A DNA stretch of 64,000 nucleotides from NCBI GenBank assembly GCA_028280285.1, contig JANQMA010000017.1:993-64992 (forward strand), read 5' to 3'. The position numbers were made by a program, and so were the translations under genes. Below the pieces are notes generated by a model. It worked only from the letters and a program-made list of their open reading frames with translations, did no database searches and was not told the origin of the DNA. Numbering within the stretch: position 1 is the first letter of the stretch; each line of letters opens with the position of its first letter. The DNA comes from Candidatus Omnitrophota bacterium. Lineage in GTDB: Bacteria; Omnitrophota; Gorgyraeia; Zapsychrales; Zapsychraceae. Shown in pieces: positions 28,273-62,913 of this stretch.

Positions 28273-28955
28273 GTTTATCCAGATCCACTAAAAAACCGGT
28301 TCCGGTGCTTTTTGAAAATCAGCATTTTATCGTCTTTAATAAACCCGCCAGGCTTCTTGTCATCCCGTCACCGACCGAGAAAAATAATACATTAGTTAAT
28401 ATTGTGAATCGTCAGTATGCACGTAATGATGGATCGGCCAAGCTTCATCCATGCCACCGGTTGGACAAAGACACATCCGGGGCTATTTTGTTTGCCAAGG
28501 GTAAGGCCAACCAAAAGGTGATGATGGAGGAGTTTAAAGACAGGGAAATTAAAAAAGTCTATGAGGCCTTTGTGCATGGACACCCTAAAAGAAAAAAGGC
28601 ATCGATCAGTAAGCCGATCAAGTCACTGGATCAGAAGAAATTTAAGCAAACGCGGGCCAAGCCGGCTTTAACGAATTATCAAGTGAAGAAAACCTGTGAA
28701 CACTTTAGTGTCGTCGAGGCAGAGCCTGTGACCGGACGTGCTAATCAAATACGTATTCATTTCAAAGATATCGGCCATCCGCTTGTGGGGGAGCGCAAAT
28801 ACGCCATTGCGCGGGATTATCCGGTCAAATTTAAACGTGTTGCGCTTCATGCCAGCCGTTTGGAGTTTATTGATCCACATTCGCAACAGCATGTTATTGT
28901 GGATGCTCCTCTGGCGGAAGATATGAGAGAATTTTTGGAAAAAAGTGGTCCGTGA
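28269..28955 (+). CDS. RluA-family pseudouridine synthase
   Basis: HRLDKDTSGAILFAK (catalytic Asp motif), TGRANQIRIHF and HPLVGERKYA. The last three codons and the TGA stop lie inside a GTGGTC-family palindromic element. Confidence 0.8.
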   Translation: MSLSRSTKKPVPVLFENQHFIVFNKPARLLVIPSPTEKNNTLVNIVNRQYARNDGSAKLHPCHRLDKDTSGAILFAKGKANQKVMMEEFKDREIKKVYEAFVHGHPKRKKASISKPIKSLDQKKFKQTRAKPALTNYQVKKTCEHFSVVEAEPVTGRANQIRIHFKDIGHPLVGERKYAIARDYPVKFKRVALHASRLEFIDPHSQQHVIVDAPLAEDMREFLEKSGP

Positions 28956-29012
28956 TCCGTGGTCAGTGGTCGTTTTTATGTTTGATCACAGAACACAGAC
29001 CACAGATCACTA
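28944..29012. repeat. GTGGTCYGTG-family palindromic element, copy 1 (overlaps rluA stop)
   Basis: Left arm GTGGTCCGTGATCCGTGGTCAGTGGTC, right arm GATCACAGAACACAGACCACAGATCAC. Confidence 0.85.
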
Positions 29013-29949: not shown

Positions 29950-31974
29950 ATGGATCAATTCAAACTAGTTTCAAAATTCAAACCTGTCACCGAACAGCTG
30001 GATGCGGTCGATAAGCTCGTTCAAAACATTAAGGGCGGCACAAAAGATCAGGTTCTCCTCGGGGTAACCGGGAGCGGTAAAACATTCACCCTCGCCAATG
30101 TGATTGAGAAGATCAACCGTCCGACGCTCGTTATAAGCCACAATAAAACCCTTGCCGCTCAACTCTATAGCGAATTTAAAGAATTCTTTCCCCATAATGC
30201 GGTTGAGTATTTCGTGAGTTATTACGACTATTATCAACCGGAAGCCTATGTTCCCCAAACCGATATTTATATCGAGAAGGATGCTTCGATCAATGACCGG
30301 CTGGACCGTCTGCGTCTTGCGTCAACCACATCGCTTATGACCAGACGTGATGTTATTATTGTGGCGAGCGTTTCTTGTATTTACAATCTTGGTTCGCCTG
30401 AAGATTATGCACAGTTTTTACTTTATTTGAATGTTGGTGATGAAATTGAGCGCGATCAGGTGCTGGAGAAGCTGGTCGACATACAGTATGAACGCAGCGA
30501 TATGGATTTTAGGCGCGGTTCTTTCCGCGTGCGTGGGGATGTGGTCGAGGTTTATCCGGCATACCGGCAGGACGGCCTTAGAATTGAATTTTTCGGGGAT
30601 GAGATTGAAAAGATCAAACAAATTCATCCGCTGACAGGTGATGTGATTGCCGAACTTGATAAAATTGCCGTGTATCCGGCGAAACATTTTATCATCGGTC
30701 ATGAGCGCATTGACGCGGCCATGGTTGAAATCGAAACAGAACTGAAAGAACAACTTAAAGTATTAAATAAAAAAGGCAAGCTCGCCGAGGCGCAAAGACT
30801 TGAGTCGCGCACGAAATACGATATGGAAATGATGAAAGAGATGGGCTATTGCAACGGGATTGAAAACTATTCACGTGTCTTATCCGGCCGCCCACCGGGG
30901 TCCAGGCCGTATTCGCTCATTGATTATTTCCCGGACGATTTTGTAACGCTGATTGATGAGTCGCATGTAACCGTTCCACAGGTTAACGGGATGTATAACG
31001 GCGACCGCGCGCGTAAAACAACGCTTGTTGATTATGGTTTCCGTCTGCCGTCGTGTTTGGATAATCGTCCGCTTAAATTTGCTGAATTTGAAAAATTAAT
31101 CAGTCAGACTATTTATGTCTCCGCTACACCCGGGCCTTATGAGCAGAAAAAAGGCAAAGGAAATCTGGTCGAGCAGATTATCCGTCCGACGGGGATTGTT
31201 GATCCGCCGATTGAAGTGCGCAAGACCGAAGGGCAAATCGATGATTTGATGAATGAAATCAAAAAGCGGGCCAAGGCCAATGAGCGTGTGCTGGTTACAA
31301 CGCTGACCAAACGAATGTCGGAAGATTTAACGGAGTATCTGCAGGATAACAGTATTAAGGTAAAATATTTGCATTCCGACATTGAAACCATTGATCGTAC
31401 GAAAATCCTGCAGGATCTGCGGCTTAAAAAATATGACTGCCTTGTCGGGGTTAACCTTTTGCGTGAAGGTTTGGATTTGCCGGAAGTCTCTCTTGTGGCG
31501 ATACTCGATGCGGATAAGCAAGGCTTTTTACGTTCGCAGACTTCACTCATTCAAACAGCCGGGCGCGCTGCGCGTAATGTCAACGGCATTGTTATTATGT
31601 ATGCCGATACGATAAGCCAAGCGATGAAAGATACGATGGCCGAGTGTGAGCGCCGGCGTAAGATCCAACTCGCGTTTAATAAAAAGCATAATGTCACACC
31701 GCAGACGATTAAGCGGGCTATCCGCCAGGGAATTGAAGTGTTGGCCGACGAGGTCGAAGAAGTGGTGCTTGATGCGGCCGGCCAGGACAAAGAAGAGTTT
31801 GCTTTTGCCAATTCAATTGCCGCACTTGAACGGGAAATGGAAAATGCGGCGCGCAATTTACAATTTGAGAAAGCCGCCAAGTTTCGTGATAGAATAAAAG
31901 CATTACAGGAAAGCCTCGGGGAGCCGTTGGCCGAGCCGAGCGTGCGTAGGCGAAGAAAGAAATCTAAAAAGTGA
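29950..31974 (+). CDS. uvrB: excinuclease ABC subunit B
   Basis: Walker [10 protein letters not shown], helicase motifs, the UvrB beta-hairpin region and a C-terminal UVR domain ([27 protein letters not shown]). The stop codon lies inside a palindromic element. Confidence 0.95.
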
Positions 31975-32030
31975 TCAGTGGTCTGTGATCACAAATATTA
32001 ACTGACCACAGAACACAGACAACAGACCAC
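31969..32030. repeat. GTGGTCYGTG-family palindromic element, copy 2 (contains the uvrB stop codon)
   Basis: GTGATCAGTGGTCTGTGATCAC ... GACCACAGAACACAGACAACAGACCAC. Confidence 0.85.
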
Positions 32031-32037
32031 AAATATT

Positions 32038-32802
32038 ATGAATATTTTAGCCATCGACATAGGCAATACCACCATTCAATCCGCGATTGTGAGCAAACGC
32101 TCGGTTAAACCGCTCACGCCTGTTAATACGAATCTTTCTGCAGCTGTGCTCAAGACAAAGCTAACCTCCGTTGCCCGTCAAGCCAAGCGGCAAGGGGGCA
32201 ATATCAAAGAAGTTATTATCTGCAGTGTTGTGCCAAAGGCATCGCAAATCGTTAAGCGCATTATGCATCAAACACTAGGTATTCAAGTCAATATTGTCGG
32301 GATCGATATGCGGGTCCCGATTAAAAACAATTACCGTCCGCAAAAAGCAGTCGGTCAAGATCGGTTGGTCGGGGCGTTTGCGGCCCAGGCTATTTACGGC
32401 ACACCGGCGATTGTCATCGATTTAGGGACGGCTATTACCTTTGATGTGATTAACAAAAAAGGCATTTATGAAGGTGGCATCATTGTGCCGGGCATTCGCC
32501 TGTCAGCCGAAAGCCTGTTTAACAAAACAGCGCTCCTTCCGAGTATAAACACCATTGAAGCCCCACGCAGCTTAATCGGACAAAGCACCAAAGAAAGTAT
32601 TCTCAGTGGTGTTTTTCATGGCTATGGCGCCATGTGCTCCGGGTTGATCGATCAGCTCAGGGCCAAAAAGTACAAAAAAGCCAAAGTCATTGTCACCGGC
32701 GGACATACCAAGCTCATGCAAAAATATATCTCGGCCAAGATCAATGTGATTGATGAACATCTGGTCTTTAAAGGGCTGTATTTGCTTTCCAAGCGCAGTT
32801 AA
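32038..32802 (+). CDS. coaX: type III pantothenate kinase
   Basis: MNILAIDIGNTTIQ... ASKHA-fold N-terminus and GGHTKLM. Confidence 0.85.
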   Translation: MNILAIDIGNTTIQSAIVSKRSVKPLTPVNTNLSAAVLKTKLTSVARQAKRQGGNIKEVIICSVVPKASQIVKRIMHQTLGIQVNIVGIDMRVPIKNNYRPQKAVGQDRLVGAFAAQAIYGTPAIVIDLGTAITFDVINKKGIYEGGIIVPGIRLSAESLFNKTALLPSINTIEAPRSLIGQSTKESILSGVFHGYGAMCSGLIDQLRAKKYKKAKVIVTGGHTKLMQKYISAKINVIDEHLVFKGLYLLSKRS

Positions 32803-35011: not shown

Positions 35012-35083
35012 TGGTGGTCTGTGTTCTGTGGTCTGTGTTCAGTTAAATGAACGACTGATCACAGATCACGGACCACAGATCAC
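35012..35083. repeat. GTGGTCYGTG-family palindromic element, copy 3 (intergenic, after groEL)
   Basis: GGTGGTCTGTGTTCTGTGGTCTGTGTTC ... GATCACAGATCACGGACCACAGATCAC. Confidence 0.85.
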
Positions 35084-35242
35084 ATAATATCACTAAAACC
35101 AGTCATTCTCGTGGCTGGTTTTATTTATATATTGACTTTTCAAAAAAATACGGTATCATATATGCTTATAATTTAGACTTAGGTTTTCTCTATATTAGAG
35201 ACTTAAGTTTATATATATCAATGGTTTAGAAAGGATTCACCC

Positions 35243-38273: not shown

Positions 38274-38519
38274 CTTAGTGAACAGTGAACAGAAGGGGAA
38301 TACTTCTATTCACTAGCTGTTCCCTGTTCCCTAACACATCTCTTTTCCCATCCCATTATTTTTTGCATTAATATTAATATATGTAATACTTGCAATATTA
38401 ATGAGCATTTAATTTACACGACCATAAGGAAGTGTAAATTAGAAATGCGAATTAATCCCGAGTTGCTCTCGCTAAATGTCTGCAACGAGGGATCTTACAA
38501 TCAATAAGGATTAATATTC

Positions 38520-41500
38520 GTGAAACGCACTCACTGGACATATAGATGCATTGCACTTGTCGTAAGCTGTTTATTTACAGTTACTTCGATAAATCCCGTC
38601 TATGCCCAGATGCAACCTACCCAGGCCATTGCTCCTAAACCATTGCCTTTAAATGTGTTAAGTCAACCCTATGAACCGATTTTGATCAAAGGCCTTAAGG
38701 TCAATCAGACCAATCCATTTGAGATGGAGTTTATTGTAAGTGATCCGTGGTCCGTGGTCCGTGGTCAGCGGAATACTGATCACAGACCACAGAGCACAGA
38801 CCACCTAGAGCAGGAGTCTACTCAATTAATTAAATACTTCCTTGCCGCTTTAACCACTCCCGAGCAAGACATGTGGGTCAACCTATCCCCGTATGAGAAG
38901 AATCGGATTATTCCAGAGTCATTTGGTCGGACAGAAATGGGACGGGAGCTGCTTGTACAGGACTATCTTTTAAAACAGGTTACAGCATCATTGCTTCATC
39001 CGGATGGGGAGTATGGACAAGAGTTTTGGAGTAAAATAGCAACCCAAACATCGGAGGACATACCATTAGAATTATTCAATAAGGTCTGGATCATGCCGGA
39101 TAAAGCGGTGGTGTATGAGAATGAAGGGATAGCGTATGTGGTAGAGGCGAGTCTTAAGGTTATGTTGGAGGAAGATTACCTTGCGCAGCAAAAGAGTGGT
39201 CCGTGGTCCGTGGTCAGTGATCTGTCAAAAAATACGACCACAGATCACAGAACACAGACCACACAAATCATTCGTGAAACAATCATTCCCGCTATCGAAA
39301 CCGAGGTCAACAATAGCAAGAATTTCGCCAAGCTCCGCCAGATCTATCACAGCCTCATCCTGGCGACATGGTACAAGAAAAAGATGCAAAACGCGATTTT
39401 AACCCAAGTCTATGCCGATCAAAACAAGACTAATGGTGTAAGCCACAATGATCCTAAAGCAGCTGAAAAAATCTGGCAAGAGTACACCAAGACATTTAAA
39501 GAAGGGGCGTATAACTTTATCAAAGAAGAATACGATCCACAGACTCAGCAAATCGTTCCACGGAAGTATTTCAGCGGGGGGATGGCGATGGAGGTTGTGC
39601 TATCAGAACCGGCAGCGCTTACATCACAACAACAAGAGACTATTCCCGACAACGCCTACCTCGTCCGTGTTGCGTTAAACGAATTGACTCCCGATTCTGA
39701 TAGCGCGGCAATGGTTAAGAAAAAATCAGCGGATGATTTTAAATATAATGTCAATATAAGGACCCCCAAATTACAGGATCAACTCCCAGGGTTAGCAAAA
39801 AAACGGGAACAGACAAAGAAGGCACTTATTGGTTATTTCAATCAAATGATACATCATAATCCATTTGAAATGCCGAAATTTAATGTGAATTATAATCGAA
39901 TCATGCATTTACTACGACATATGATAGGGTTTGATGCTATTGGATTCTCATTTTCTGAACAAGATCCTGATGGCTTTATTACAAAAGCTGCGGTTTCTAA
40001 TGTGCTTATCCCTTTAATTGAACAAACAAAATTTCCTTTGTCTGTTGACCGTATGACACAATTTGTATTAGAGGCAAATTTAGATAATGAACGTCAGTTT
40101 AAATATATCGAAGCGCTTAATGATTTTAAAGTTTTTGCTACTTCTTATTCGGAAGGCGCCGAAAACGCAGCGTTGACAGCGCCCGCTCCCGACCCCGCCG
40201 TGATGACGCAAGAGGAACAACTTTCTATCGATCCGGCATCACTTGCTGAGTTAGCATTGGCTATGACTGAAAAGGATGTTCAAGATATCGCTGAAGTAGC
40301 CCGGTTGATAAAACAGAACTCCGATCATTATGCAAAAATATTGCTCAAAGAATATAACCAAACCAAAGACCAATTCAAAAATCGAGAAGAAATAATAAAG
40401 ATTGACGCTGTTGTAGACGATCCGACAATCCAGAAATTAATAAAAATATTTAAACGGATAAGCCGTAAAACAGGGAAAGAAAACAGCCGTAATGTTTCGC
40501 GTAGTTTAATGGGCTTAATTTATTTCTATAAATATATAACATATTTATATAAGCCCAAATATCAAATGGATGTTATAAGTGACATATCATTAAATATACT
40601 TTTGGGGGATATAATTAGGGAAAGCAATACTAAGAGAGGCCTTAAATCTTCCACCATTCCTATAGAAGATCAAATGCGCAATGTTGTTTTAGATTTTGCC
40701 GATAATTTAGGCAATTTGGTTGGGCGGATCAATGCACTGCCAAAAGCGAACACTACAGAGTTTGCACAAGTGTGGGCCTCTATGATTAATGAGGATAATT
40801 TTACCAGGGCAGATCTTTATCAGAACATAAAATCTTTTGGCAGGGTTTTAGAAGCGCGACGCGGGCGTTTTTTAACATTCTTAAGAGCAGACCGCAGCTT
40901 AACACGTGAAGCAAAAGAAACGTTGATTCTAAAAGCGCTTGCAATGAATCAAGAAGGGAAGGATCCAAAGGCAATTGTGGATGAATTAATGCAAGTGTGG
41001 ATTCCTCAATTTAAACGCAGTGAAGCAATATATGGTGTGCTAAGGATGACCGGCTGGGAATCAGAAATTCATAGATACCAATGGGGTGAATATGCAAAAT
41101 ATGCCCCTTTTCCTGTTCGGGAAATCACCAATGTCTACCGGGATATTGTTGGTATGCATTTAGATCCTCATATTTCCTCACATGATTGGACAGAGTATGT
41201 CGGACGTCCGGCACTCTCCTGGTTTGTTCAGTGGAAAAAAATAGAAGCCATGACTCAATTGAGTTTTATACCACTTGAAGATCCGGATGGTAATTTGATT
41301 TACAATGATTTGCAGGTTAATGGGGTTATCCCCGAGGAAATTTTAAAACTTGTTTATAAGGACGTTCATCCGCTGGCAACTATTTCCGGTACAGAAGATA
41401 AAAAGTGGAGGACGGAACGATGGCAGTTATATAAGGGCCATTACTATCCACCACTCGAAAGTGAATGGATAGAGTTTGTCAAAATGCTGCTCTATTCCTC

Positions 41501-44500
41501 CCAAAATCGCTTGAAGAGTAGACGAGGCAATCATGATGCTGTCATTGTAAAGCACGCTTATAATTTAAAAATAGGCAACCTTCGTTATGATCTGTATCAG
41601 TCAAATAATTTATGGAGGCTGCAGTATCCGTATGGAGATATATCTGATCTTCCATTTTCTGATTATGGGAAGAGCCTGCAGACAGCACAAGTTCTACATG
41701 GCTTGATGATGCATCATCTTGTTGTTAAGTATGGTCTCATTAATAATGCTCCGGCTGAACATCATGATTTTATTATGCGTTTATCTGATATGTGGCAAAG
41801 TTTTGAAAACGATCTTGAGGAAACTCTTCAAAACCGGGGTTATACGCGAGAGAATTTGCGTTTGCATGTTTTGTCGAATGCTCATGGAGTCGATGGTATT
41901 AAATATCTTAGGGAATTGTTTATTAATCGTATATTTCGATTACGTGAAAAGAAAGTTACTGAGGAAATACGTAATCTTGTCGAGTCGACCCTCACTGAAG
42001 TGGATGATGTTTTAACGGAAGAATATGAAAAGAGAAAGGACGTCGAAAACGCGGCATTGATTAAACAGCGTCCAGCGTTGAGCGTAGAGCGTATAGCGGA
42101 TAGTGATATTAATCTAACCGCTAAACGCCATCCGCTAGACACTAAAACCGACCCCGCCGCGATGGTGAAACAAAATTTGGCGAACATTGACCAAAATATT
42201 TATGAGGATATTGTAGACCATCTTCTATGGCATAAGCCAAATGTGATTGTAAAAGATCATTATCGCGATATTTTAGCGCGGTTTATTCACGATAATAGAA
42301 AAAAAGAAAAAAAATTCTGGTCTCGTGAGGGTAAAAAAATATTTTCCAAAGAGCAGGTGCGCACTTTATTGGAATCTTGGCCCGGAAATAATATGCAATA
42401 TAAAGCACATGTTAATTCTTCGGGGAATAGAGAAATATCAATCATATTGCATCAAAAAATTAAACCGACTTTTACTATTGATCTTACATTTAAGAGAGAC
42501 GGACAGGTTAAGCTAGGTAAACAGTTTAAATCGCATCAAAACTATATAGTGGATAGATTAGAAGAGAGTTATGGGATCGACCGTATTGAAGCCCGTGTGA
42601 TTGCACAAATAGCACGTCGTTATTGGTTTAAAAGTGTTTTTATCCCTATGCTGCGCGAGATGGAAATTGACCATCTGCATGGTAAAAAAATAGATGAAAA
42701 ATCAACATTTTTCGCAGAGATGGGTTTTAAAGACGGTGTTTTATCTGTCGACCCCGCCGCGATGGCGGAGCAGGAGCAAGAGTCCAAAAAAGATCAATCC
42801 GCTCCGGTGTCTTTCAATGTTGGCGATGAATTGAGGAGGATTTATCATAATACAACACGTCCTAAAATTTTCAAAGTAGAAAAATGGCCTGGGCAGGCTA
42901 TACAACTACGAATGGAAGAGGATCCTCTTCCACGAGATAAACCGCCTAATTCTATTACTGATGAGGATTTGACATATCGCATATACGCATCGGTCACACA
43001 TGGGAAATCCGCGTTCTACTATCCTGTAGCGATGCGTTCGGGTATTTTTTACAAAAATGATATTGTTGATTTAACAAAAGGCTGGCAAATTACTTATAAT
43101 TACCCGGCCGTCTATAAGCTTATTCAAAACTACCGAGATAAGAATGGATATGCAAGTTATTTGGAGGCGATTGATCATCTATTAGAAAACGATGAAGAAA
43201 CCCGTAAATATGAGAAACATTTAATTAACCAAATCATTTCTTTGTTTCCGATTTTGCAAATTTTTTATGGGTTTTCATCAGATGAGCAAGTGGATGAGTA
43301 TTTTAACCAGGCCCCTCAACAATTAGAAAATAAAGGTATTGCCTCGGCTTTACTTGAATATTTAGGAAGTTATTTACCGGTTGGAACAAAAGTCAAAATT
43401 ATCGGAGCGAATCGGCCGACCGTAGAAGCTCTTAATAAGGGAACGGTATTTGAAGATACATTGCTCGGGAAAATGTATACGCGTATCGGATTTAAAGTTT
43501 TATCTATTGAACAAAAAGACGGACAAAATCCAATTGTTGTTTTCCAGAAGACAAAAAATGTAAAACCACGCGCTAAGTGGAAAGATGTAACGAAGTTAGG
43601 AGGTCACGTTTTATCCGTAGAGAGCGGTGTCGTTTCTGATTCCGAAGGTGTCGAAAACGCTGCATTGAGCAAAGTTGTCCCTGACTCTGCCGTAATGGTC
43701 GGTTTGAAAACGGATCCAATAGAGTTATCCATGGTGGAAGAAAACTATATTAGACTTTTAATAGAAAATAATTACCAGAAACAAACTTTTCAGGTGATGA
43801 TTAACGATATTAAAGATCCTGATCGAATTCACCAGCTTATGACGGAAGTCTTAAAGCGAAAAGGGTATTATCGACCAGAGATCAATAATTTTAATGATAG
43901 AAGTAGGTTTCCTTTGGAGGTTCCAGGTGATAGAGGGCTTATTTTAACGTCTATGGGTGATGGTAATGAAGATATTTTAAGATTTACGGTTGAAAGTAAT
44001 AATGTGATTATGTGGAAGCGTCCTAAAATTGGTGGTTCAAAATTGGGTGTTGCACCGGTTGCCTATGTTTGGTGGGCAACTCATCCAGAAATTAGAAAAG
44101 AGTTGTCCGGGAAGCCAATGAAGGGGTATAAGGCAGATTATAGGCAGGGGAGGGCTCTTGAAAAAGCATGGATTTTTAAAATTGCCTTACCCGATGGAGC
44201 TAAAGATTGGAACAAATATGATTATTCAGGTTCTTTTCCTGTTTGGCAAAAAGATTTAAAACAAAACGTCGAAAACGCGGCGTTGACAGAGCCTGCTCCC
44301 GATCCCGCCGCGATGGCGAAGCAGGAATTTGAACGGACTGATTCAGCGGTAGTTGCAGATCAGGAAGGACAATATATTATCCCTGGTTTTGATATTATAA
44401 AATATTCGGTTGATTCTTATGATCAAGAAAATCGAGAAGCAAGAGAAAGTCGAGAGGCAAGATATGAATTGAATGATTGGCAAGAAGGTGTTGTATTGGC

Positions 44501-46034
44501 TCAAATTGAAAATATCATTATGCAGGCACAAGAAATTGGCGATATAGATATGGAAAATTATTTAATATATGTTTTGGAACAAGGAGTTAAAAAATTTATT
44601 AAATCTGATACGTCAGAATATATTCAGGCAGTAGGTAAAACAAAAATGGACGGTCGTGAAGTTGTTTCAATAGCCGAGGAATTACTTAATCAATCAAGAT
44701 CTGATGATGACGTGAAATTATTGGTTAAATTGGTTTTAATCCATGAATTTAATCATATTCTTGATCACAAATTAAATCGTTTATCATTAAACATTATGAA
44801 ATTAGTTGACATAAATCTTATAGAACGTTCGGCCTTGATTCGTTCAGCTGCATATTTTGATGGATTTATAAAGAAAGAAGGCGATGGATTAAATGATTTT
44901 ATTGTCATGTACCGATTTGATGGCGATAAAATTATGGCTTATACTTCAACAAATTCGGAAATATCTTCTGTGAAATCAGATTATCAAAAGCCACCTGTTA
45001 TCATGCCTGGGGAAAATCGGTATACATATTATGATCAATTAGCTAGAAAAGGAAATATTGTAACGTCTGAAGAAACTGGGTCTATATATTATTATGAGTC
45101 ATATAGAAAAGGGGGTGATGACACTACACTGGAAAAAAATGGTGTCGTTTCTGAAAAAAATGGTGTCGTTTCTGATTCCGAAGGTGTTGAAAACGCTACG
45201 TTGGCAAAGGGCGCTTCCGACAATGCCGCGATGGCGGATAATTCAGATAGTGATGAGGTTTTTATAGAACAAGATAATTATACTTTTAAATATCGACGAC
45301 CAACACAAATAGCAATGGCTTCGGTAACAGTGATGAATCCCAAAGGAGTTCATGGTGGTCCTTCACAATATATAACGGGTTTGGTTAAATCGTATCAAGA
45401 TATTTGGCCACTAACGATTAAAATGAAATTTAAGGGTGAATACATTGATACGAATGATGTGAAAAATATTATGGAATTGAAAATAAAACAAGGTGATGTA
45501 TTGGAAATAGAGATGTTTGGGAGTGAAGAAGGGGCTTTAAAGTTTGTGCAAAGTATGGCCGCAAGGGTAGCTGATTCTGAAACACGTAAAAAGTATGAAG
45601 CGAAAATCACAAGACAGCCATTAAATGAGGATGACGCAGCATTGACTAAAGGTGGTATAGACTTCGACGCCTCCAAAATGGATCTAGAGATTCGGACGGA
45701 ACAAAGCCAGATGCTCGATGCTCGCCCGCCCCGCCGCTTCGCGGCGGAAGCTGCGGGCCGGGGATGCTCGATGCTAGAGGACGAAGAGTTGCGAAAAGAG
45801 TGCCTTACTAACACCTCTAGTGGTATACAGTTTAAGTTTACTCCCCAACAGATTGAGGGGATGCGCCAGAATATTACGGGCTTTAATCCGGTGATTATTA
45901 ATATCCAGCCGATTGTGAACTTGCCGTTGTTTTTGGGGTTGAATGATATTGAGGACGCGCCGGATGAGACAGAAACGGTAGAGGCAGATGGTCAGGATCT
46001 TTTAGCAAGAATGGAGGAGTATTCATATAACTAG
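38520..46034 (+). CDS. giant secreted protein (2504 aa) of unknown function, with repeated ENAAL..PAPDPAAM modules and an HEFNH motif
   Basis: Uninterrupted 7.5-kb ORF in an AT-rich genome. Signal peptide MKRTHWTYRCIALVVSCLFTVTSINPVYA-Q. HExxH at about nt 44745 (LVLIHEFNHILDH). Contains three in-frame palindromic-element insertions and 6-7 GC-rich repeat modules. Confidence 0.8.
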   Translation: MKRTHWTYRCIALVVSCLFTVTSINPVYAQMQPTQAIAPKPLPLNVLSQPYEPILIKGLKVNQTNPFEMEFIVSDPWSVVRGQRNTDHRPQSTDHLEQESTQLIKYFLAALTTPEQDMWVNLSPYEKNRIIPESFGRTEMGRELLVQDYLLKQVTASLLHPDGEYGQEFWSKIATQTSEDIPLELFNKVWIMPDKAVVYENEGIAYVVEASLKVMLEEDYLAQQKSGPWSVVSDLSKNTTTDHRTQTTQIIRETIIPAIETEVNNSKNFAKLRQIYHSLILATWYKKKMQNAILTQVYADQNKTNGVSHNDPKAAEKIWQEYTKTFKEGAYNFIKEEYDPQTQQIVPRKYFSGGMAMEVVLSEPAALTSQQQETIPDNAYLVRVALNELTPDSDSAAMVKKKSADDFKYNVNIRTPKLQDQLPGLAKKREQTKKALIGYFNQMIHHNPFEMPKFNVNYNRIMHLLRHMIGFDAIGFSFSEQDPDGFITKAAVSNVLIPLIEQTKFPLSVDRMTQFVLEANLDNERQFKYIEALNDFKVFATSYSEGAENAALTAPAPDPAVMTQEEQLSIDPASLAELALAMTEKDVQDIAEVARLIKQNSDHYAKILLKEYNQTKDQFKNREEIIKIDAVVDDPTIQKLIKIFKRISRKTGKENSRNVSRSLMGLIYFYKYITYLYKPKYQMDVISDISLNILLGDIIRESNTKRGLKSSTIPIEDQMRNVVLDFADNLGNLVGRINALPKANTTEFAQVWASMINEDNFTRADLYQNIKSFGRVLEARRGRFLTFLRADRSLTREAKETLILKALAMNQEGKDPKAIVDELMQVWIPQFKRSEAIYGVLRMTGWESEIHRYQWGEYAKYAPFPVREITNVYRDIVGMHLDPHISSHDWTEYVGRPALSWFVQWKKIEAMTQLSFIPLEDPDGNLIYNDLQVNGVIPEEILKLVYKDVHPLATISGTEDKKWRTERWQLYKGHYYPPLESEWIEFVKMLLYSSQNRLKSRRGNHDAVIVKHAYNLKIGNLRYDLYQSNNLWRLQYPYGDISDLPFSDYGKSLQTAQVLHGLMMHHLVVKYGLINNAPAEHHDFIMRLSDMWQSFENDLEETLQNRGYTRENLRLHVLSNAHGVDGIKYLRELFINRIFRLREKKVTEEIRNLVESTLTEVDDVLTEEYEKRKDVENAALIKQRPALSVERIADSDINLTAKRHPLDTKTDPAAMVKQNLANIDQNIYEDIVDHLLWHKPNVIVKDHYRDILARFIHDNRKKEKKFWSREGKKIFSKEQVRTLLESWPGNNMQYKAHVNSSGNREISIILHQKIKPTFTIDLTFKRDGQVKLGKQFKSHQNYIVDRLEESYGIDRIEARVIAQIARRYWFKSVFIPMLREMEIDHLHGKKIDEKSTFFAEMGFKDGVLSVDPAAMAEQEQESKKDQSAPVSFNVGDELRRIYHNTTRPKIFKVEKWPGQAIQLRMEEDPLPRDKPPNSITDEDLTYRIYASVTHGKSAFYYPVAMRSGIFYKNDIVDLTKGWQITYNYPAVYKLIQNYRDKNGYASYLEAIDHLLENDEETRKYEKHLINQIISLFPILQIFYGFSSDEQVDEYFNQAPQQLENKGIASALLEYLGSYLPVGTKVKIIGANRPTVEALNKGTVFEDTLLGKMYTRIGFKVLSIEQKDGQNPIVVFQKTKNVKPRAKWKDVTKLGGHVLSVESGVVSDSEGVENAALSKVVPDSAVMVGLKTDPIELSMVEENYIRLLIENNYQKQTFQVMINDIKDPDRIHQLMTEVLKRKGYYRPEINNFNDRSRFPLEVPGDRGLILTSMGDGNEDILRFTVESNNVIMWKRPKIGGSKLGVAPVAYVWWATHPEIRKELSGKPMKGYKADYRQGRALEKAWIFKIALPDGAKDWNKYDYSGSFPVWQKDLKQNVENAALTEPAPDPAAMAKQEFERTDSAVVADQEGQYIIPGFDIIKYSVDSYDQENREARESREARYELNDWQEGVVLAQIENIIMQAQEIGDIDMENYLIYVLEQGVKKFIKSDTSEYIQAVGKTKMDGREVVSIAEELLNQSRSDDDVKLLVKLVLIHEFNHILDHKLNRLSLNIMKLVDINLIERSALIRSAAYFDGFIKKEGDGLNDFIVMYRFDGDKIMAYTSTNSEISSVKSDYQKPPVIMPGENRYTYYDQLARKGNIVTSEETGSIYYYESYRKGGDDTTLEKNGVVSEKNGVVSDSEGVENATLAKGASDNAAMADNSDSDEVFIEQDNYTFKYRRPTQIAMASVTVMNPKGVHGGPSQYITGLVKSYQDIWPLTIKMKFKGEYIDTNDVKNIMELKIKQGDVLEIEMFGSEEGALKFVQSMAARVADSETRKKYEAKITRQPLNEDDAALTKGGIDFDASKMDLEIRTEQSQMLDARPPRRFAAEAAGRGCSMLEDEELRKECLTNTSSGIQFKFTPQQIEGMRQNITGFNPVIINIQPIVNLPLFLGLNDIEDAPDETETVEADGQDLLARMEEYSYN
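38741..38804. repeat. GTGGTCYGTG-family element, copy 4, in frame inside the giant ORF
   Basis: GATCCGTGGTCCGTGGTCCGTGGTCAGCGGAATACTGATCACAGACCACAGAGCACAGACCAC, translated as DPWSVVRGQRNTDHRPQSTDH. Confidence 0.85.
39196..39263. repeat. GTGGTCYGTG-family element, copy 5, in frame inside the giant ORF
   Basis: GTGGTCCGTGGTCCGTGGTCAGTGATCTG...GACCACAGATCACAGAACACAGACCAC, translated as SGPWSVVSDLSKNTTTDHRTQTTQ. Confidence 0.85.
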
Positions 46035-46856: not shown

Positions 46857-47135
46857 ATGATTATGATACCGCCTAAATCAGTCAAATTGTGGGGACGCGG
46901 CCAGTTGACGATTCCCAAAGAGGTGCGGGAAGCTCTCAAGCTGGATGATGAGACCCAGTTAAACGTTTTTGCCGTTGGGCAGTGCCTTGTCTTGACACCC
47001 AAGCGTCTTATGCGTAAGCAGTTAGCCAAAGATGTGGCCAAGAGTATAAAAAAACAAGATCTTAAGCTTAATGATTTGTTAAGTGATCTTAAAAAGGAAC
47101 GCCGAAAATACGTTGATGAAAAATATGGAAAATAA
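46857..47135 (+). CDS. AbrB/SpoVT-family antitoxin
   Basis: LWGRGQLTIPKEVREALKLDDETQLNVFAVGQCLVLTP is the AbrB-like swapped-hairpin fold. Overlaps the downstream PIN gene. Confidence 0.65.
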   Translation: MIMIPPKSVKLWGRGQLTIPKEVREALKLDDETQLNVFAVGQCLVLTPKRLMRKQLAKDVAKSIKKQDLKLNDLLSDLKKERRKYVDEKYGK

Positions 47136-47577
47136 TCAATGGCATGTTTTTCTGGATACCAATGTTATTATTGCCGGTCTTATTTCTTCTAGAGGAGCAT
47201 CATCCGCCATTTTGGATCTAGGCGAAGCCGAAGAAATCCGTATTGTCATTAGTCAGCACGTTTTGGTTGAGGCTGACCGTGTTTTTCTTGCCAAATTTCC
47301 TGATTTGATTGTCCGGTTCCGTGAGTTTATTAAAAACTTATCTCCTTTGTTATTAGATGATCCTAGTCCTAAAGTCGTTCATGCAGCTAGTGAAGTTATT
47401 GAATCGGGCGACGCACCAATTTTAGCAGCTGTGAAGTCTGAAAATATCGATTATTTGGTAACGCTTGATACGAAACATTTCAAGACAAAAAAAGTGCGTG
47501 CATACGTCACAACCCCGATTGTTACGCCATCAGAGTTTCTTAAAGCGTTTAGAGAGTTTTGGGAAGAAGCGGGTTAA
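47116..47577 (+). CDS. PIN-domain (VapC-like) toxin
   Basis: VFLDTNVIIAG (first acidic motif) and LVTLDTKHF (distal Asp). The start overlaps the antitoxin stop. Confidence 0.65.
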   Translation: MKNMENNQWHVFLDTNVIIAGLISSRGASSAILDLGEAEEIRIVISQHVLVEADRVFLAKFPDLIVRFREFIKNLSPLLLDDPSPKVVHAASEVIESGDAPILAAVKSENIDYLVTLDTKHFKTKKVRAYVTTPIVTPSEFLKAFREFWEEAG

Positions 47578-57900: not shown

Positions 57901-58318
57901 AGGCGAAGGGATAAAAAGCGCTGCGCTTGATCTTGCCTTCGTTACCGCACAAAAGATACGTTCGATTAATAGCAAATATTTAAATCATCATTATGTGACG
58001 GATGTTATTACGTTTGATTACGGTGGTCCGTGGTCTGTGGTCCGTGGTCGGAGTCCTAAAATTAATACACAGAAAACAGACCACAGAAAACAGACCACTT
58101 TAAATGGTGAAATTATTATTTCCACCGATGCGGTCAGGCAGAATGCGCGCAAGTTTAAAACCAGTGAGGCATATGAGCTTGCGCTTTATCTCGTGCATGG
58201 CATTTTGCATTTGTTGGGGTATGATGATAAGACAGTGAAAGATAAGGCGGTCATGCGTGAGGCGGAGGAGAGGGTAATGGGGTATTTGGGTAAAAAAATA
58301 GATAAGGTAAACGCATGA
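57818..58318 (+). CDS. ybeY: rRNA maturation endoribonuclease YbeY carrying an in-frame palindromic-element insertion of about 25 aa
   Basis: Zinc-binding HGILHLLGYDD motif. Insert GGPWSVVRGRSPKINTQKTDHRKQTTLNG lies between VITFDY and EIIISTDAV. Confidence 0.85.
   Translation: MDIQIENLQKKIILKPIPIKNLVQTVLKGEGIKSAALDLAFVTAQKIRSINSKYLNHHYVTDVITFDYGGPWSVVRGRSPKINTQKTDHRKQTTLNGEIIISTDAVRQNARKFKTSEAYELALYLVHGILHLLGYDDKTVKDKAVMREAEERVMGYLGKKIDKVNA
58023..58098. repeat. GTGGTCYGTG-family element, copy 6, in frame inside ybeY
   Basis: GGTGGTCCGTGGTCTGTGGTCCGTGGTCGGAG...CACAGAAAACAGACCACAGAAAACAGACCAC. Confidence 0.85.
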
Positions 58319-62842: not shown

Positions 62843-62913
62843 GGTGGTCTGTGTTCCGTGTTCTGTGTTCTGTATCGTTCCAAGATGACCACTGACCACA
62901 GATCACAGACCAC
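62843..62913. repeat. GTGGTCYGTG-family palindromic element, copy 7 (intergenic, after the CMD gene)
   Basis: GGTGGTCTGTGTTCCGTGTTCTGTGTTCTG ... GACCACTGACCACAGATCACAGACCAC. Confidence 0.85.

What the first reader, a model, noticed from the sequence alone, without database searches (positions are those of the whole stretch)
38520..46034. 2504-aa secreted giant protein of unknown function with an HEFNH zincin-like motif
A 7.5-kb uninterrupted ORF with a clear Sec signal peptide (cleavage after VYA) and no recognisable globular domain families on inspection. The modular structure is punctuated by the ENAAL..PAAM repeats. One HExxH motif (LVLIHEFNHILDH, nt about 44745) could mark a metalloprotease module. 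Giant secreted proteins of this type are typical accessory or host-interaction factors in uncultivated lineages and are usually unannotated.
Basis: partly seen in the sequence, partly recalled or inferred. Interest (0 to 1): 0.6.

Follow-up and report, generated by a model that had tools for sequence, protein, structure and literature searches.

The report
Mosaic exported cassette protein of Omnitrophota
The 7.5-kb gene is real and belongs to a large, apparently undescribed Omnitrophota protein family in which a constant exported head and a constant tail bracket a changing string of unrelated protein modules, each preceded by the same four- or five-residue junction, so it looks like a bacterial polyprotein or cargo carrier rather than a simple secreted protease.

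Summary
The ORF (38520-46034, +, GTG start, 2504 aa) is confirmed. It has one stop in frame, against 113-257 in the other five frames. It has an N-terminal Sec-type signal and no later transmembrane segment.

It is not an orphan. At least 2147 proteins, almost all from Omnitrophota, share only two parts with it: a ~325-aa N-terminal domain (aa 30-354) and a ~100-aa C-terminal domain (aa 2378-2480, GGIDx...PVIINIxP...FLG). Neither domain matches Pfam, NCBIfam or PDB.

Between them lie seven modules. Each follows a junction, D-x-A-(A/V)-M, usually with ENAAL upstream. The motif occurs 7 times here against 0.3 expected. It is about 9-fold enriched across the family, while control motifs are not.

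Homologous modules in other members are bounded by the same junction. In some members the junction Met starts a complete Tat, Sec or lipoprotein signal peptide, so modules look like whole captured ORFs.

The HEFNH module is one such cassette. HExNHxxD plus a Glu 23 residues further on are invariant in its five homologues, and the predicted topology is zincin-like. No search gave a significant match to a known peptidase. Another module is HPr-like (Pfam E = 1e-5).

At the syntenic guaA-dnaE site, other genomes carry members with entirely different cargo.

Best reading: an exported mosaic polyprotein or cargo carrier, possibly processed at the junctions. The architecture is shown. Processing and function are inferred.

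The parts
38520..38606 (+). Start codon (GTG) and Sec-type signal peptide, aa 1-29, predicted cleavage VYA|Q
   Evidence: It is the only strongly hydrophobic window in the protein. The start position agrees with homologues P0002 and P0003. 100 of 110 family members have such a segment, and the other 10 look like truncated start calls.
38607..39581 (+). Constant N-terminal domain of the family (aa 30-354, ending KYFSGG)
   Evidence: It is 42-73% identical to the N-termini of 119 other proteins. The 26-sequence alignment A1 has 74 invariant columns and no invariant His or Cys. The AF2 model has pLDDT 71 and pTM 0.71. There is no Pfam, NCBIfam, PDB-sequence or Foldseek-PDB match.
38747..38805 (+). 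In-frame copy of a dispersed palindromic repeat inside an N-domain loop (about aa 77-96)
   Evidence: blastn finds the same element at five intergenic sites of the window. It falls in a lower-confidence part of the model.
39196..39262 (+). Second in-frame copy of the same palindromic repeat (about aa 226-248)
   Evidence: Found by the same searches. It coincides with the pLDDT<50 segment at model residues 198-210.
39606..39713 (+). Junction 1 (EPAAL ... DSAAM, aa 363-398)
   Evidence: Located. In the family, 73 of 119 members have a strict junction within 80 aa after FSGG, at a median of 14 aa.
39714..40154 (+). Module 1 (aa 399-545), no homologue found
   Evidence: No match.
40155..40205 (+). 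Junction 2 (ENAAL..DPAVM, aa 546-562)
   Evidence: Located.
40206..42041 (+). Module 2 (aa 563-1174). The same cassette occurs in P0004, P0005 and P0121, bounded there by DxAM or GGID.
   Evidence: BLASTP E 1e-80 and 4e-68. HMMER E 6.5e-84 to P0121.
42042..42164 (+). Junction 3 (ENAAL ... DPAAM, aa 1175-1215), lengthened by an in-frame palindromic insert (TAGCGGATAG...CCATCCGCTA)
   Evidence: Seen. The translated insert resembles N-domain loop inserts of P0007 and P0014.
42165..42749 (+). Module 3 (aa 1216-1410), no homologue in 1.84 billion representatives
   Evidence: No hit.
42750..42764 (+). Junction 4 (DPAAM only, aa 1411-1415)
   Evidence: Located.
42765..43649 (+). Module 4 (aa 1416-1710), about 18 representative homologues. 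These include P0008 and stand-alone ~300-aa proteins with their own hydrophobic N-terminus (P0125, P0126).
   Evidence: Found.
43650..43697 (+). Junction 5 (ENAAL..DSAVM, aa 1711-1726)
   Evidence: Located.
43698..44267 (+). Module 5 (aa 1727-1916), homologous to a duplicated unit in P0132
   Evidence: Found.
44268..44315 (+). Junction 6 (ENAAL..DPAAM, aa 1917-1932)
   Evidence: Located.
44316..45185 (+). Module 6 (aa 1933-2222), a putative zincin-like cassette. HEFNH is at nt 44742-44756, D2082 follows, and E2102 is at nt 44823-44825.
   Evidence: Five homologues, all inside family members and all bounded by junctions. H, E, N, H, D and E/S/R are invariant. The AF2 core has pLDDT 75-95 with sheet, HExxH helix and Glu helix. 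Only sub-threshold zincin hits were found, and no significant fold match.
45186..45233 (+). Junction 7 (ENATL..DNAAM, aa 2223-2238)
   Evidence: Located. Its first 34 nt are nearly identical to those of junction 5.
45234..45629 (+). Module 7 (aa 2239-2370), with an HPr-like domain at aa 2268-2338 (nt 45321-45533)
   Evidence: Pfam PF00381 E = 1e-5, above the gathering score. TIGR01003 is below its cut-off. The His15 equivalent is kept (GVHGGP), Arg17 is Gly and Ser46 is Asn.
45630..45650 (+). Last junction-like element (DDAAL-TK) directly before the C-domain
   Evidence: Located. In the family, 52 of 119 members have a strict junction within 60 aa before GGID, at a median of 7 aa.
45651..46034 (+). 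Constant C-terminal domain (GGIDF ... GFNPVIINIQP ... FLGL, aa 2378-2475), an acidic tail ending ...EEYSYN, and the stop codon
   Evidence: It aligns to the C-termini of family members. A GG[IV][DN] tail is present in essentially all 120 best hits. Profile A5 has no PDB or Pfam match.

Best explanation
SHOWN. The gene encodes one member of a large Omnitrophota-restricted family of mosaic proteins that carry a Sec-type signal peptide. Every member has four elements:
- a signal peptide;
- a strongly conserved ~325-aa N-terminal domain ending in KYFSGG;
- a variable string of unrelated modules;
- a conserved C-terminal domain beginning GGID and containing PVIINIxP...FLG.

Each module, and usually the C-domain too, is preceded by a short junction: D-x-A-M in most members, and D-x-A-(A/V)-M with an upstream ENAAL in this clade. 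Modules behave as exchangeable cassettes. The same module occurs in different members next to different partners, and it is bounded by the junction each time. In some members the junction Met is the first residue of a complete Tat, Sec or lipoprotein signal peptide, so modules look like whole ORFs captured from their initiator Met.

This protein carries seven modules. One is a conserved HExNHxxD...E cassette (putative gluzincin-like peptidase) and one is HPr-like.

INFERRED. The whole chain is translated as one polypeptide and exported by Sec. The constant head and tail provide the constant functions (export, anchoring, targeting, or the processing itself). The junctions are recognition sites at which the chain is cut, probably between the small residue and Met/Leu. 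Cutting would release modules with native-like N-termini. In other words, this would be a bacterial polyprotein or multi-cargo carrier used in the interaction of these small, reportedly host-dependent bacteria with other cells.
For: Architecture:
- 2147 hits share only about 14% of the query.
- BLAST maps the shared parts to aa 1-360 and aa 2375-2480 in all 119 other best hits.
- The GGID tail is present in essentially all of them, and 100 of 110 have a signal-like N-terminus.
Nearly all are Omnitrophota MAGs, with several per genome and tandem arrays.

One polypeptide: the ORF frame has 1 stop, against 113-257 in the other frames.

Junction motif:
- D.AM occurs 225 times against 25 shuffled in the middles of 121 proteins. 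E.AM, D.AL, K.AM and D.GM are not enriched. Median spacing is 307 aa.
- The flanks carry almost no information.
- Asp codon use equals the background, and there is no upstream SD-like signal, so selection is mainly on the peptide.
- The motif occurs 7 times against 0.3 expected in this protein, but only 5 against 2.4 in the other 35 ORFs of the window.
- It does not resemble the sequence upstream of ordinary gene starts in the window.

Cassette boundaries:
- All five module-6 homologues are bounded by DxAM on the N side and by DxAM or GGID on the C side.
- Starts of between-member homology lie nearer to junctions than random (median 49.5 against 142 aa; 23% against 6% within 10 aa).

Whole-ORF capture: Tat, Sec or lipoprotein signal peptides start exactly at the junction Met in P0007, P0073, P0104, P0032, P0115 and P0059.

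Cargo turnover: at the syntenic site guaB-guaA-[member(s)]-dnaE-hisS, locus L079 has two tandem members (753 and 1477 aa) that share only the N and C domains with this protein.

Cargo diversity: dozens of different Pfam families appear among the 120 best hits.
Against: - No cleavage has been observed, and no protease has been identified.
- No gene is conserved next to family members in 80 loci.
- The N-domain has no invariant His or Cys and no fold match, so its role is unknown.
- Many cargo domains are typical cytoplasmic, ATP- or cofactor-dependent enzymes (HPr, PEP-utilising enzymes, radical SAM, kinases). These make little sense outside a cytoplasm unless they are delivered into another cell.
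- At least one cargo domain is truncated: TIM in P0062 matches only profile positions 51-244. Some cargo may therefore be degenerate.
- Only 73 of 119 members have a strict junction after the N-domain, and 52 of 119 before the C-domain.
- The junction could simply be a structural cap. The C-domain itself contains DPAM at the start of a conserved stretch.
Confidence: 0.45

Rival explanations
1. Unprocessed multidomain surface or periplasmic protein. The chain stays intact after export and acts as an adhesin-like or multi-enzyme scaffold. The D-x-A-M element is only a structural joint, such as a helix cap, selected because it lets neighbouring modules fold independently.
For: No protease or cleavage evidence exists. 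The same DPAM occurs inside the conserved C-domain, where it is presumably structural. Omnitrophota giant ORFs have been proposed to act as adhesins or surface coats (PMC10066038). Junction regions tolerate in-frame repeat insertions, as linkers do.
Against: Flexible linkers are rarely fixed to an invariant D..AM with an obligatory Met while E.AM, D.AL and K.AM are not enriched. Complete Tat, Sec and lipoprotein signal peptides placed directly after the junction Met cannot work inside an uncut chain. The cargo modules are functionally unrelated to one another.
Confidence: 0.25
2. Stop-less operon. The junction ATGs are also, or mainly, internal translation starts. Modules would then be made as separate cytoplasmic, or individually exported, proteins, and the full-length read-through product would be secondary.
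For: Met is obligatory at the junction. Modules begin like native N-termini and sometimes carry their own signal peptides. The cargo is mostly of cytoplasmic type. There is a nucleotide bias just before the ATG: Ala is GCG in 54% of sites against 27% background. Six of the seven ENAAL-type Leu codons are TTG.
Against: No SD-like or other conserved sequence lies upstream of the junction ATG, whereas ordinary genes in the window do have purine-rich SD-like sequences. Independent cistrons would not need to stay in frame and free of stops for 2504 codons. D.AV and D.AL, which could hold GTG or TTG starts, are not enriched in the 4-residue type. The Asp requirement with free codon choice points to a peptide-level constraint.
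Confidence: 0.1
3. One reading: the protein is essentially a giant secreted zinc metalloprotease, with the HEFNH module as the functional core and the rest as accessory regions.
For: HExNHxxD and a Glu at +23 are invariant in six sequences. The predicted sheet, HExxH helix and Glu helix form a zincin-like topology. There are weak hits to Tox-MPTase3, Zincin_1 and eCIS_core.
Against: The module is one of seven cassettes and is absent from nearly all family members. No significant match to any peptidase family or structure was found. The features conserved across the family are the N and C domains, not this module.
Confidence: 0.1
4. Artefact: several genes fused by assembly or sequencing errors, or a decaying pseudogene.
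For: Some database relatives on nanopore contigs are clearly fragmented by frameshifts, so errors do occur in this family's gene calls.
Against: Errors break ORFs rather than fuse them. This ORF has a complete head-to-tail family architecture in a single frame. More than 100 independent assemblies give the same architecture.
Confidence: 0.02

Closest known systems
MARTX (multifunctional-autoprocessing RTX) toxins of Vibrio and relatives (comparison from established knowledge)
   Same: Both are large proteins in which constant N- and C-terminal regions bracket a variable, strain-specific set of unrelated effector modules. In MARTX the modules are released by cleavage at short sites in the inter-module linkers, after Leu. 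The cargo acts in another cell's cytoplasm.
   Different: MARTX toxins are exported by type I secretion without a Sec signal. Their constant regions are glycine-rich repeats, and they carry their own cysteine protease domain (Peptidase_C80). Here there is a Sec-type signal, non-repetitive constant domains with no Pfam match, and no protease domain common to the family.
Viral polyproteins (picornavirus, potyvirus, flavivirus type; comparison from established knowledge)
   Same: One long ORF encodes functionally unrelated units, separated by a short conserved motif in otherwise unconserved linkers.
   Different: Here the gene is cellular and chromosomal, sits among housekeeping genes, is exported, and its protease is unknown. 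The units are shuffled between paralogues.
Polymorphic toxin systems (Rhs, CdiA, MafB and similar) and type IX secretion cargo with a conserved C-terminal domain (comparison from established knowledge)
   Same: Constant trafficking parts are combined with highly variable cargo, there are many paralogues per genome, and cargo is exchanged rapidly. T9SS cargo also combines a Sec signal with a conserved ~80-aa C-terminal sorting domain.
   Different: Polymorphic toxins have a single variable C-terminal toxin with an adjacent immunity gene. Here several internal modules lie between two constant ends, and no conserved neighbour gene was found. No T9SS CTD model (TIGR04183/TIGR04131 in NCBIfam) or autotransporter model matches.
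Omnitrophota giant proteins: 'Archaeovorins' and dockerin-type giants (bioRxiv 10.1101/2023.11.21.568195; 10.64898/2026.06.07.730766)
   Same: They come from the same phylum. They contain a similar odd mix of enzyme domains (methyltransferases, radical SAM, NUDIX, HATPase, PPDK_N, HAD) in exported or membrane-associated proteins. Post-translational cleavage has been suspected for them.
   Different: Those proteins are 30,000-147,000 aa with many transmembrane helices and with SecA-like, C39 or S8 domains. The authors state that cleavage points are unknown. This protein is 2504 aa, has no internal TM helix and has none of those domains. The N/C-bracketed family and the junction motif were not mentioned in the papers searched.

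Membership tests
Unnamed Omnitrophota N/C-bracketed mosaic protein family (defined here) | N-terminal Sec-type signal peptide | tested here: met
   K/R followed by a hydrophobic stretch at aa 9-29 and VYA|Q. 100 of 110 members show the same.
Unnamed Omnitrophota N/C-bracketed mosaic protein family (defined here) | Conserved ~325-aa N-domain (LIKYFLA..WVNLSPYEK..TEMGR..KYFSGG) | tested here: met
   42-73% identity over aa 1-360 to 119 proteins, E <= 1e-90. 74 invariant columns in A1.
Unnamed Omnitrophota N/C-bracketed mosaic protein family (defined here) | Conserved C-domain (GGID...GF.PVIINI.P...FLG) at the extreme C-terminus | tested here: met
   aa 2378-2475 aligns to the C-termini of family members. 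This clade has an extra Cys-containing insert that is shared with P0002.
Unnamed Omnitrophota N/C-bracketed mosaic protein family (defined here) | D-x-A-(small)-M/L junction before each module | tested here: met
   Seven D.A[AV]M against 0.3 expected. The family-wide enrichment is about 9-fold.
Zincin / gluzincin metallopeptidases | HExxH on a helix | tested here: met
   HEFNH is at aa 2075-2079. H, E and H are invariant in 6 sequences. The motif lies in predicted helix 131-152 of the module model.
Zincin / gluzincin metallopeptidases | Third ligand Glu on the following helix, about 20-30 residues downstream | tested here: met
   E2102 is invariant, lies 23 residues after H2079, and falls in predicted helix 166-178. 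Ligand geometry could not be checked because no coordinates were returned.
Zincin / gluzincin metallopeptidases | Significant sequence or fold similarity to a known zincin family | tested here: not met
Zincin / gluzincin metallopeptidases | Zinc binding and peptidase activity | not testable with these tools
   This needs biochemistry.
HPr phosphocarrier family (PF00381 / TIGR01003) | Match to the family model above its curated threshold | tested here: inconclusive
   Pfam is above threshold at 25.9 bits against 23. NCBIfam TIGR01003 is below threshold at 21.6 bits against 47.9.
HPr phosphocarrier family (PF00381 / TIGR01003) | Active-site His15 with Arg17, and regulatory Ser46 | tested here: inconclusive
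   His is kept (GVHGGP against GIHARP).
MARTX toxins | RTX-type glycine-rich repeats, a cysteine protease domain and a type I secretion signal | tested here: not met
   No such Pfam or NCBIfam hits at E <= 1. A Sec-type N-terminal signal is present instead.
Type IX secretion cargo / autotransporters | T9SS C-terminal domain (TIGR04183/TIGR04131) or a C-terminal beta-barrel translocator | tested here: not met
   No NCBIfam or Pfam match for the whole protein or for the 26 C-domain sequences.
Archaeovorin / dockerin-type Omnitrophota giant proteins | More than 30,000 aa, many TM helices, and SecA-like, C39/S8 peptidase or dockerin/TSP3 domains | tested here: not met
   2504 aa, no internal TM-like window, and none of these domains. 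The definitions come from bioRxiv 10.1101/2023.11.21.568195.

The most novel reading that the evidence does not exclude
A phylum-wide bacterial polyprotein system. Whole ORFs are captured in frame from their initiator Met, sometimes still carrying their own Tat, Sec or lipoprotein signals. They sit between a constant exported head domain and a constant tail domain. A dedicated, still unidentified protease (possibly the head domain itself) cuts at the universal D-x-A|M junction and releases proteins with native N-termini, plausibly into or onto a host or prey cell. The same junction could also mark the unknown cleavage points of the far larger Omnitrophota giant proteins.
Probability: 0.25. Interest if true: 0.85.

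Novelty: new variant of a known kind. Interest (0 to 1): 0.62.

Why it matters
Omnitrophota are widespread, ultra-small and reportedly host-dependent or predatory bacteria. Their very long ORFs are a recognised puzzle, and published work states that no cleavage points are known for them.

This finding offers three things:
- a tractable, kilobase-scale family with more than 2000 members;
- a sharply defined junction motif;
- two constant domains of unknown fold.

Together these turn the question of how these modular exported proteins are built and processed into something directly testable, by N-terminomics or by expressing a 750-aa member. If the junctions are processing sites, this would be a cellular polyprotein strategy with gene-cassette capture, conceptually close to MARTX toxins but built from different parts.

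Two new domain families could also be added to the databases, since neither matches Pfam (2025 copy) or NCBIfam release 20.

Tried and rejected
- A Pfam and NCBIfam scan of the whole protein gave only the HPr hit.
- PDB profile searches with the N-domain, module 6 and the C-domain found nothing.
- Foldseek against PDB found nothing significant for the N-domain model or the module-6 model. Foldseek against BFVD for module 6 was not significant.
- PHROGs and NCBIfam scans of the module-6 sequences were uninformative.
- A word-indexed homology search with the middle region found only 2 relatives. The exhaustive search was needed to find more.
- A composite alignment, meant to fold module 6 together with the C-domain, was misaligned by MAFFT and abandoned. 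The C-domain was therefore never modelled.
- A search for a conserved neighbour gene (protease or transporter) in 80 loci gave only antisense ORF artefacts, generic histidine kinases and syntenic guaA.
- The idea that the junction is an internal ribosome-binding site was rejected. There is no upstream signal, and it does not resemble real gene starts.
- The idea that C-domain-only small proteins exist was rejected. The two examined are frameshift fragments of long genes.
- The promoter and terminator scan gave chance-level counts.
- The exact contigs for P0001, P0002 and P0003 are not on record, and no source names are available for them.
- Literature searches found no description of this family or motif.
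Full report
**Observation**

The ORF 38520-46034 (+) is real. It has 2504 codons and a GTG start, which is the first start codon after the in-frame stop at 38505. Its frame holds a single stop, against 113-257 in the other five frames of the same stretch at 39% GC. The two closest homologues start with Met at the same position.

The N-terminus has two basic residues, a hydrophobic stretch and VYA|Q. No other window of the protein is hydrophobic enough for a membrane helix.

The surroundings are ordinary chromosomal genes on the same strand. uvrB, coaX, groEL, an IMPDH-family gene and guaA lie upstream. A PIN-domain gene, dnaE, hisS and aspS lie downstream.

**Anatomy**

After the signal peptide comes a domain of about 325 aa (aa 30-354, ending KYFSGG). 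Seven modules of 130-610 aa follow, and then a C-terminal domain (aa 2378-2475: GGIDF...GFNPVIINIQP...FLGL) with an acidic tail.

Every module is preceded by D-[PSN]-A-[AV]-M. Five times this has V/A-ENAAL a few residues upstream. DDAAL precedes the C-domain. The motif D.A[AV]?M occurs 7 times against 0.3 expected by shuffling. The other 35 ORFs of the window (14,333 aa) have 5 against 2.4.

**Family**

A search of 5.8 billion proteins gave 2147 hits, each sharing about 14% of the query. BLAST places the shared parts at aa 1-360 (42-73% identity) and aa 2375-2480 in all 119 other best hits, with the middles unrelated. The GGID tail is present in essentially all of them, and 100 of 110 have a hydrophobic N-terminal segment. 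The other ten look like truncated start calls.

Named hits are almost all Candidatus Omnitrophota/Omnitrophica. There are several per genome and some tandem arrays. A few hits are labelled as other taxa (Lysobacterales, Desulfobulbaceae, Phenylobacterium, 'Planctomycetales' MAGs). These are probably binning or labelling issues, which I did not test.

The middles carry dozens of different Pfam families. They include methyltransferases, HATPase, PEP-utilising enzymes, TIM, malate synthase/ICL, radical SAM, PRTases, M48 peptidases, SNF2 helicases, DnaJ, receiver domains and HPr.

Neither constant domain matches Pfam, NCBIfam or PDB sequences. The N-domain model (pLDDT 71, pTM 0.71) is mostly long helices plus a long beta-hairpin. 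It has no Foldseek match in PDB. Its 74 invariant columns include no His or Cys.

Short database proteins that contain only the C-domain turned out to be frameshift fragments of long genes in the two cases examined.

**The junction**

- In the middles of 121 proteins, D.AM occurs 225 times against 25 after shuffling. E.AM, D.AL, K.AM and D.GM are not enriched. The median spacing is 307 aa.
- Flanking positions carry almost no information, apart from a small residue two positions after the Met.
- In 101 sites from 91 family ORFs with DNA, Asp codon use equals the background, and there is no SD-like or other upstream signal. The Ala codon is GCG in 54% of sites against 27% background.
- Real gene starts in the window look quite different. 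The constraint is therefore mainly on the peptide.
- The junction delimits cassettes. Module 6 has five homologues, all inside family members with different neighbours. Each is bounded by DxAM on the N side and by DxAM or GGID on the C side. Modules 2 and 4 behave in the same way.
- Starts of between-member homology lie nearer to junctions than random: median 49.5 against 142 aa, and 23% against 6% within 10 aa.
- A strict junction follows the N-domain within 80 aa in 73 of 119 members, and precedes the C-domain within 60 aa in 52 of 119.
- In several members the junction Met is the first residue of a complete signal peptide. Examples are the twin-arginine type (P0007 DPAAM-NRRKFVKTAVSAAGALALGVDAQA; also P0073 and P0104), the lipoprotein type (P0032) and the Sec type (P0115, P0059). 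Modules therefore look like whole ORFs taken from their initiator codon.

**Modules of this protein**

- Modules 1 and 3 have no detectable relatives. For module 3 this holds even among 1.84 billion representatives.
- Module 2 recurs in P0004, P0005 and P0121.
- Module 4 recurs in about 18 representatives. These include stand-alone ~300-aa proteins with their own hydrophobic N-terminus.
- Module 5 matches a duplicated unit in P0132.
- Module 6 carries HEFNH. H, E, N, H, D(+3) and E-x-S...R (E at +23) are invariant in six sequences. The model core is confident (pLDDT 75-95). It shows a three-stranded sheet, a helix bearing HExxH and a second helix bearing the Glu, which is the usual zincin order. 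All similarity searches stayed below significance, however.
- Module 7 is HPr-like (Pfam E = 1e-5). The His15 equivalent is kept, but Arg17 is Gly and Ser46 is Asn.

**Synteny**

Locus L079 has guaB-guaA-[two tandem members, 753 and 1477 aa]-dnaE-hisS, and L060 has guaB-guaA-[member]. GuaA is 67-70% identical to the window's. Only the N and C domains of these members match this protein. Cargo and copy number therefore turn over at a fixed chromosomal site. No other gene is conserved next to members in 80 loci.

**Mechanism**

Three things are shown:
- a single selected reading frame;
- an export-type N-terminus;
- constant ends, with cassettes delimited by a peptide-level motif.

The rest is inferred. 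I favour a polyprotein or cargo-carrier model in which the junctions are processing sites, for three reasons. An invariant short motif in otherwise free linkers is what protease sites look like. The obligatory Met coincides with native N-termini, including signal peptides that need a free N-terminus. The cargo modules have no functional relation that would justify tethering them.

The pattern of a small residue followed by Met or Leu would suit a cut between them. This is speculation.

Several points weigh against the model. No protease is known. No cleavage data exist. Much of the cargo is of cytoplasmic type, which requires either delivery into another cell or loss of function. At least one cargo domain is truncated.

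The rivals are an uncut scaffold or adhesin, internal initiation at the junction ATGs, a plain secreted zincin, and an artefact. Each is weighed in its own section of this report.

**Comparison and novelty**

Functionally, the nearest analogues are MARTX toxins, viral polyproteins, polymorphic toxin systems and T9SS cargo. None of their defining domains is present.

The published Omnitrophota giants (Archaeovorins and the dockerin type) share the phylum and the odd mix of domains. They differ in size, in TM content and in their signature domains. Those papers state that cleavage points are unknown.

I found no description of this family or of its junction in the searchable literature. This is not proof that none exists.

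I rate the finding a new variant of a known kind (modular exported multi-cargo proteins). The most novel reading, a cellular ORF-capturing polyprotein system, is not excluded.

Noticed in passing
window 38747-38805 and 39196-39262 (inside the ORF); intergenic copies at about 28939-29006, 31970-32040, 35013-35086, 58023-58098 and 62844-62913: A dispersed palindromic repeat (arms GTGGTCCGTGGTC... / ...CACAGACCACAGA) is inserted in frame twice in loops of the N-domain. It also occurs at five intergenic sites. Homologues carry other translated REP-like inserts at the same two loops (for example VIPAKAGIQ and SLRGSEATEAIS).
   Followed up: partly
window about 42060-42150 (junction 3, aa 1181-1210): A second kind of palindrome (TAGCGGATAG...CCATCCGCTA) is inserted in frame in a junction, lengthening it to 41 aa. 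Its translation resembles inserts seen in N-domain loops of P0007 and P0014 (SEQRIADSS..SADNSLNA).
   Followed up: no
window junctions at 40155-40205, 42042-42164, 43650-43697, 44268-44315, 45186-45233 and 45630-45650: Six of the seven ENAAL-type Leu codons are TTG, against 26% TTG usage in the ORF (p about 0.002). Junctions 5 and 7 share a nearly identical 34-nt stretch. This could reflect shared ancestry, gene conversion or a nucleotide-level constraint. It remains unexplained.
   Followed up: partly
family ORFs in loci L001-L080 (101 junction sites): The Ala codon directly before the junction ATG is GCG in 54% of sites, against 27% background. The third base of the preceding codon is G in 56% of sites. 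The cause of this mild nucleotide bias is unknown.
   Followed up: no
C-termini of P0009, P0034, P0080, P0006 and P0002, and window 45960-46031: In a subset of members, an acidic extension after FLGL ends in a similar extreme C-terminal motif (...EKLSYLN, ...EKLSYLLN, ...EKISLLN, ...EEYSYN). This could be a second sorting or recognition signal.
   Followed up: no
P0062 aa 397-607 (homologue, not in the window): The triose-phosphate-isomerase cargo domain matches only Pfam profile positions 51-244 of 245, so it appears to lack the N-terminal part of the barrel. Some cargo enzymes may be degenerate.
   Followed up: no
window 46857-47135 and 47083-47577: A small ORF overlaps the start of a PIN-domain gene directly downstream of the giant gene. 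The arrangement looks like a VapBC-type toxin-antitoxin pair. The syntenic locus L079 has no PIN gene between the family members and dnaE.
   Followed up: partly
L021, L028 and L079 (related loci): Family members occur in head-to-tail tandem arrays: three in L021 and two each in L028 and L079. Complete members range from about 750 aa to more than 4300 aa, so large size is not a defining property of the family.
   Followed up: partly
P0007 and P0011 (homologues): Other cargo modules carry different HExxH-type motifs (YHETTHV, HEYVHTL, AHEFAHTL). Several members carry M48 peptidase domains (PF01435). Peptidase-like cassettes of more than one kind therefore recur in the family.
   Followed up: no
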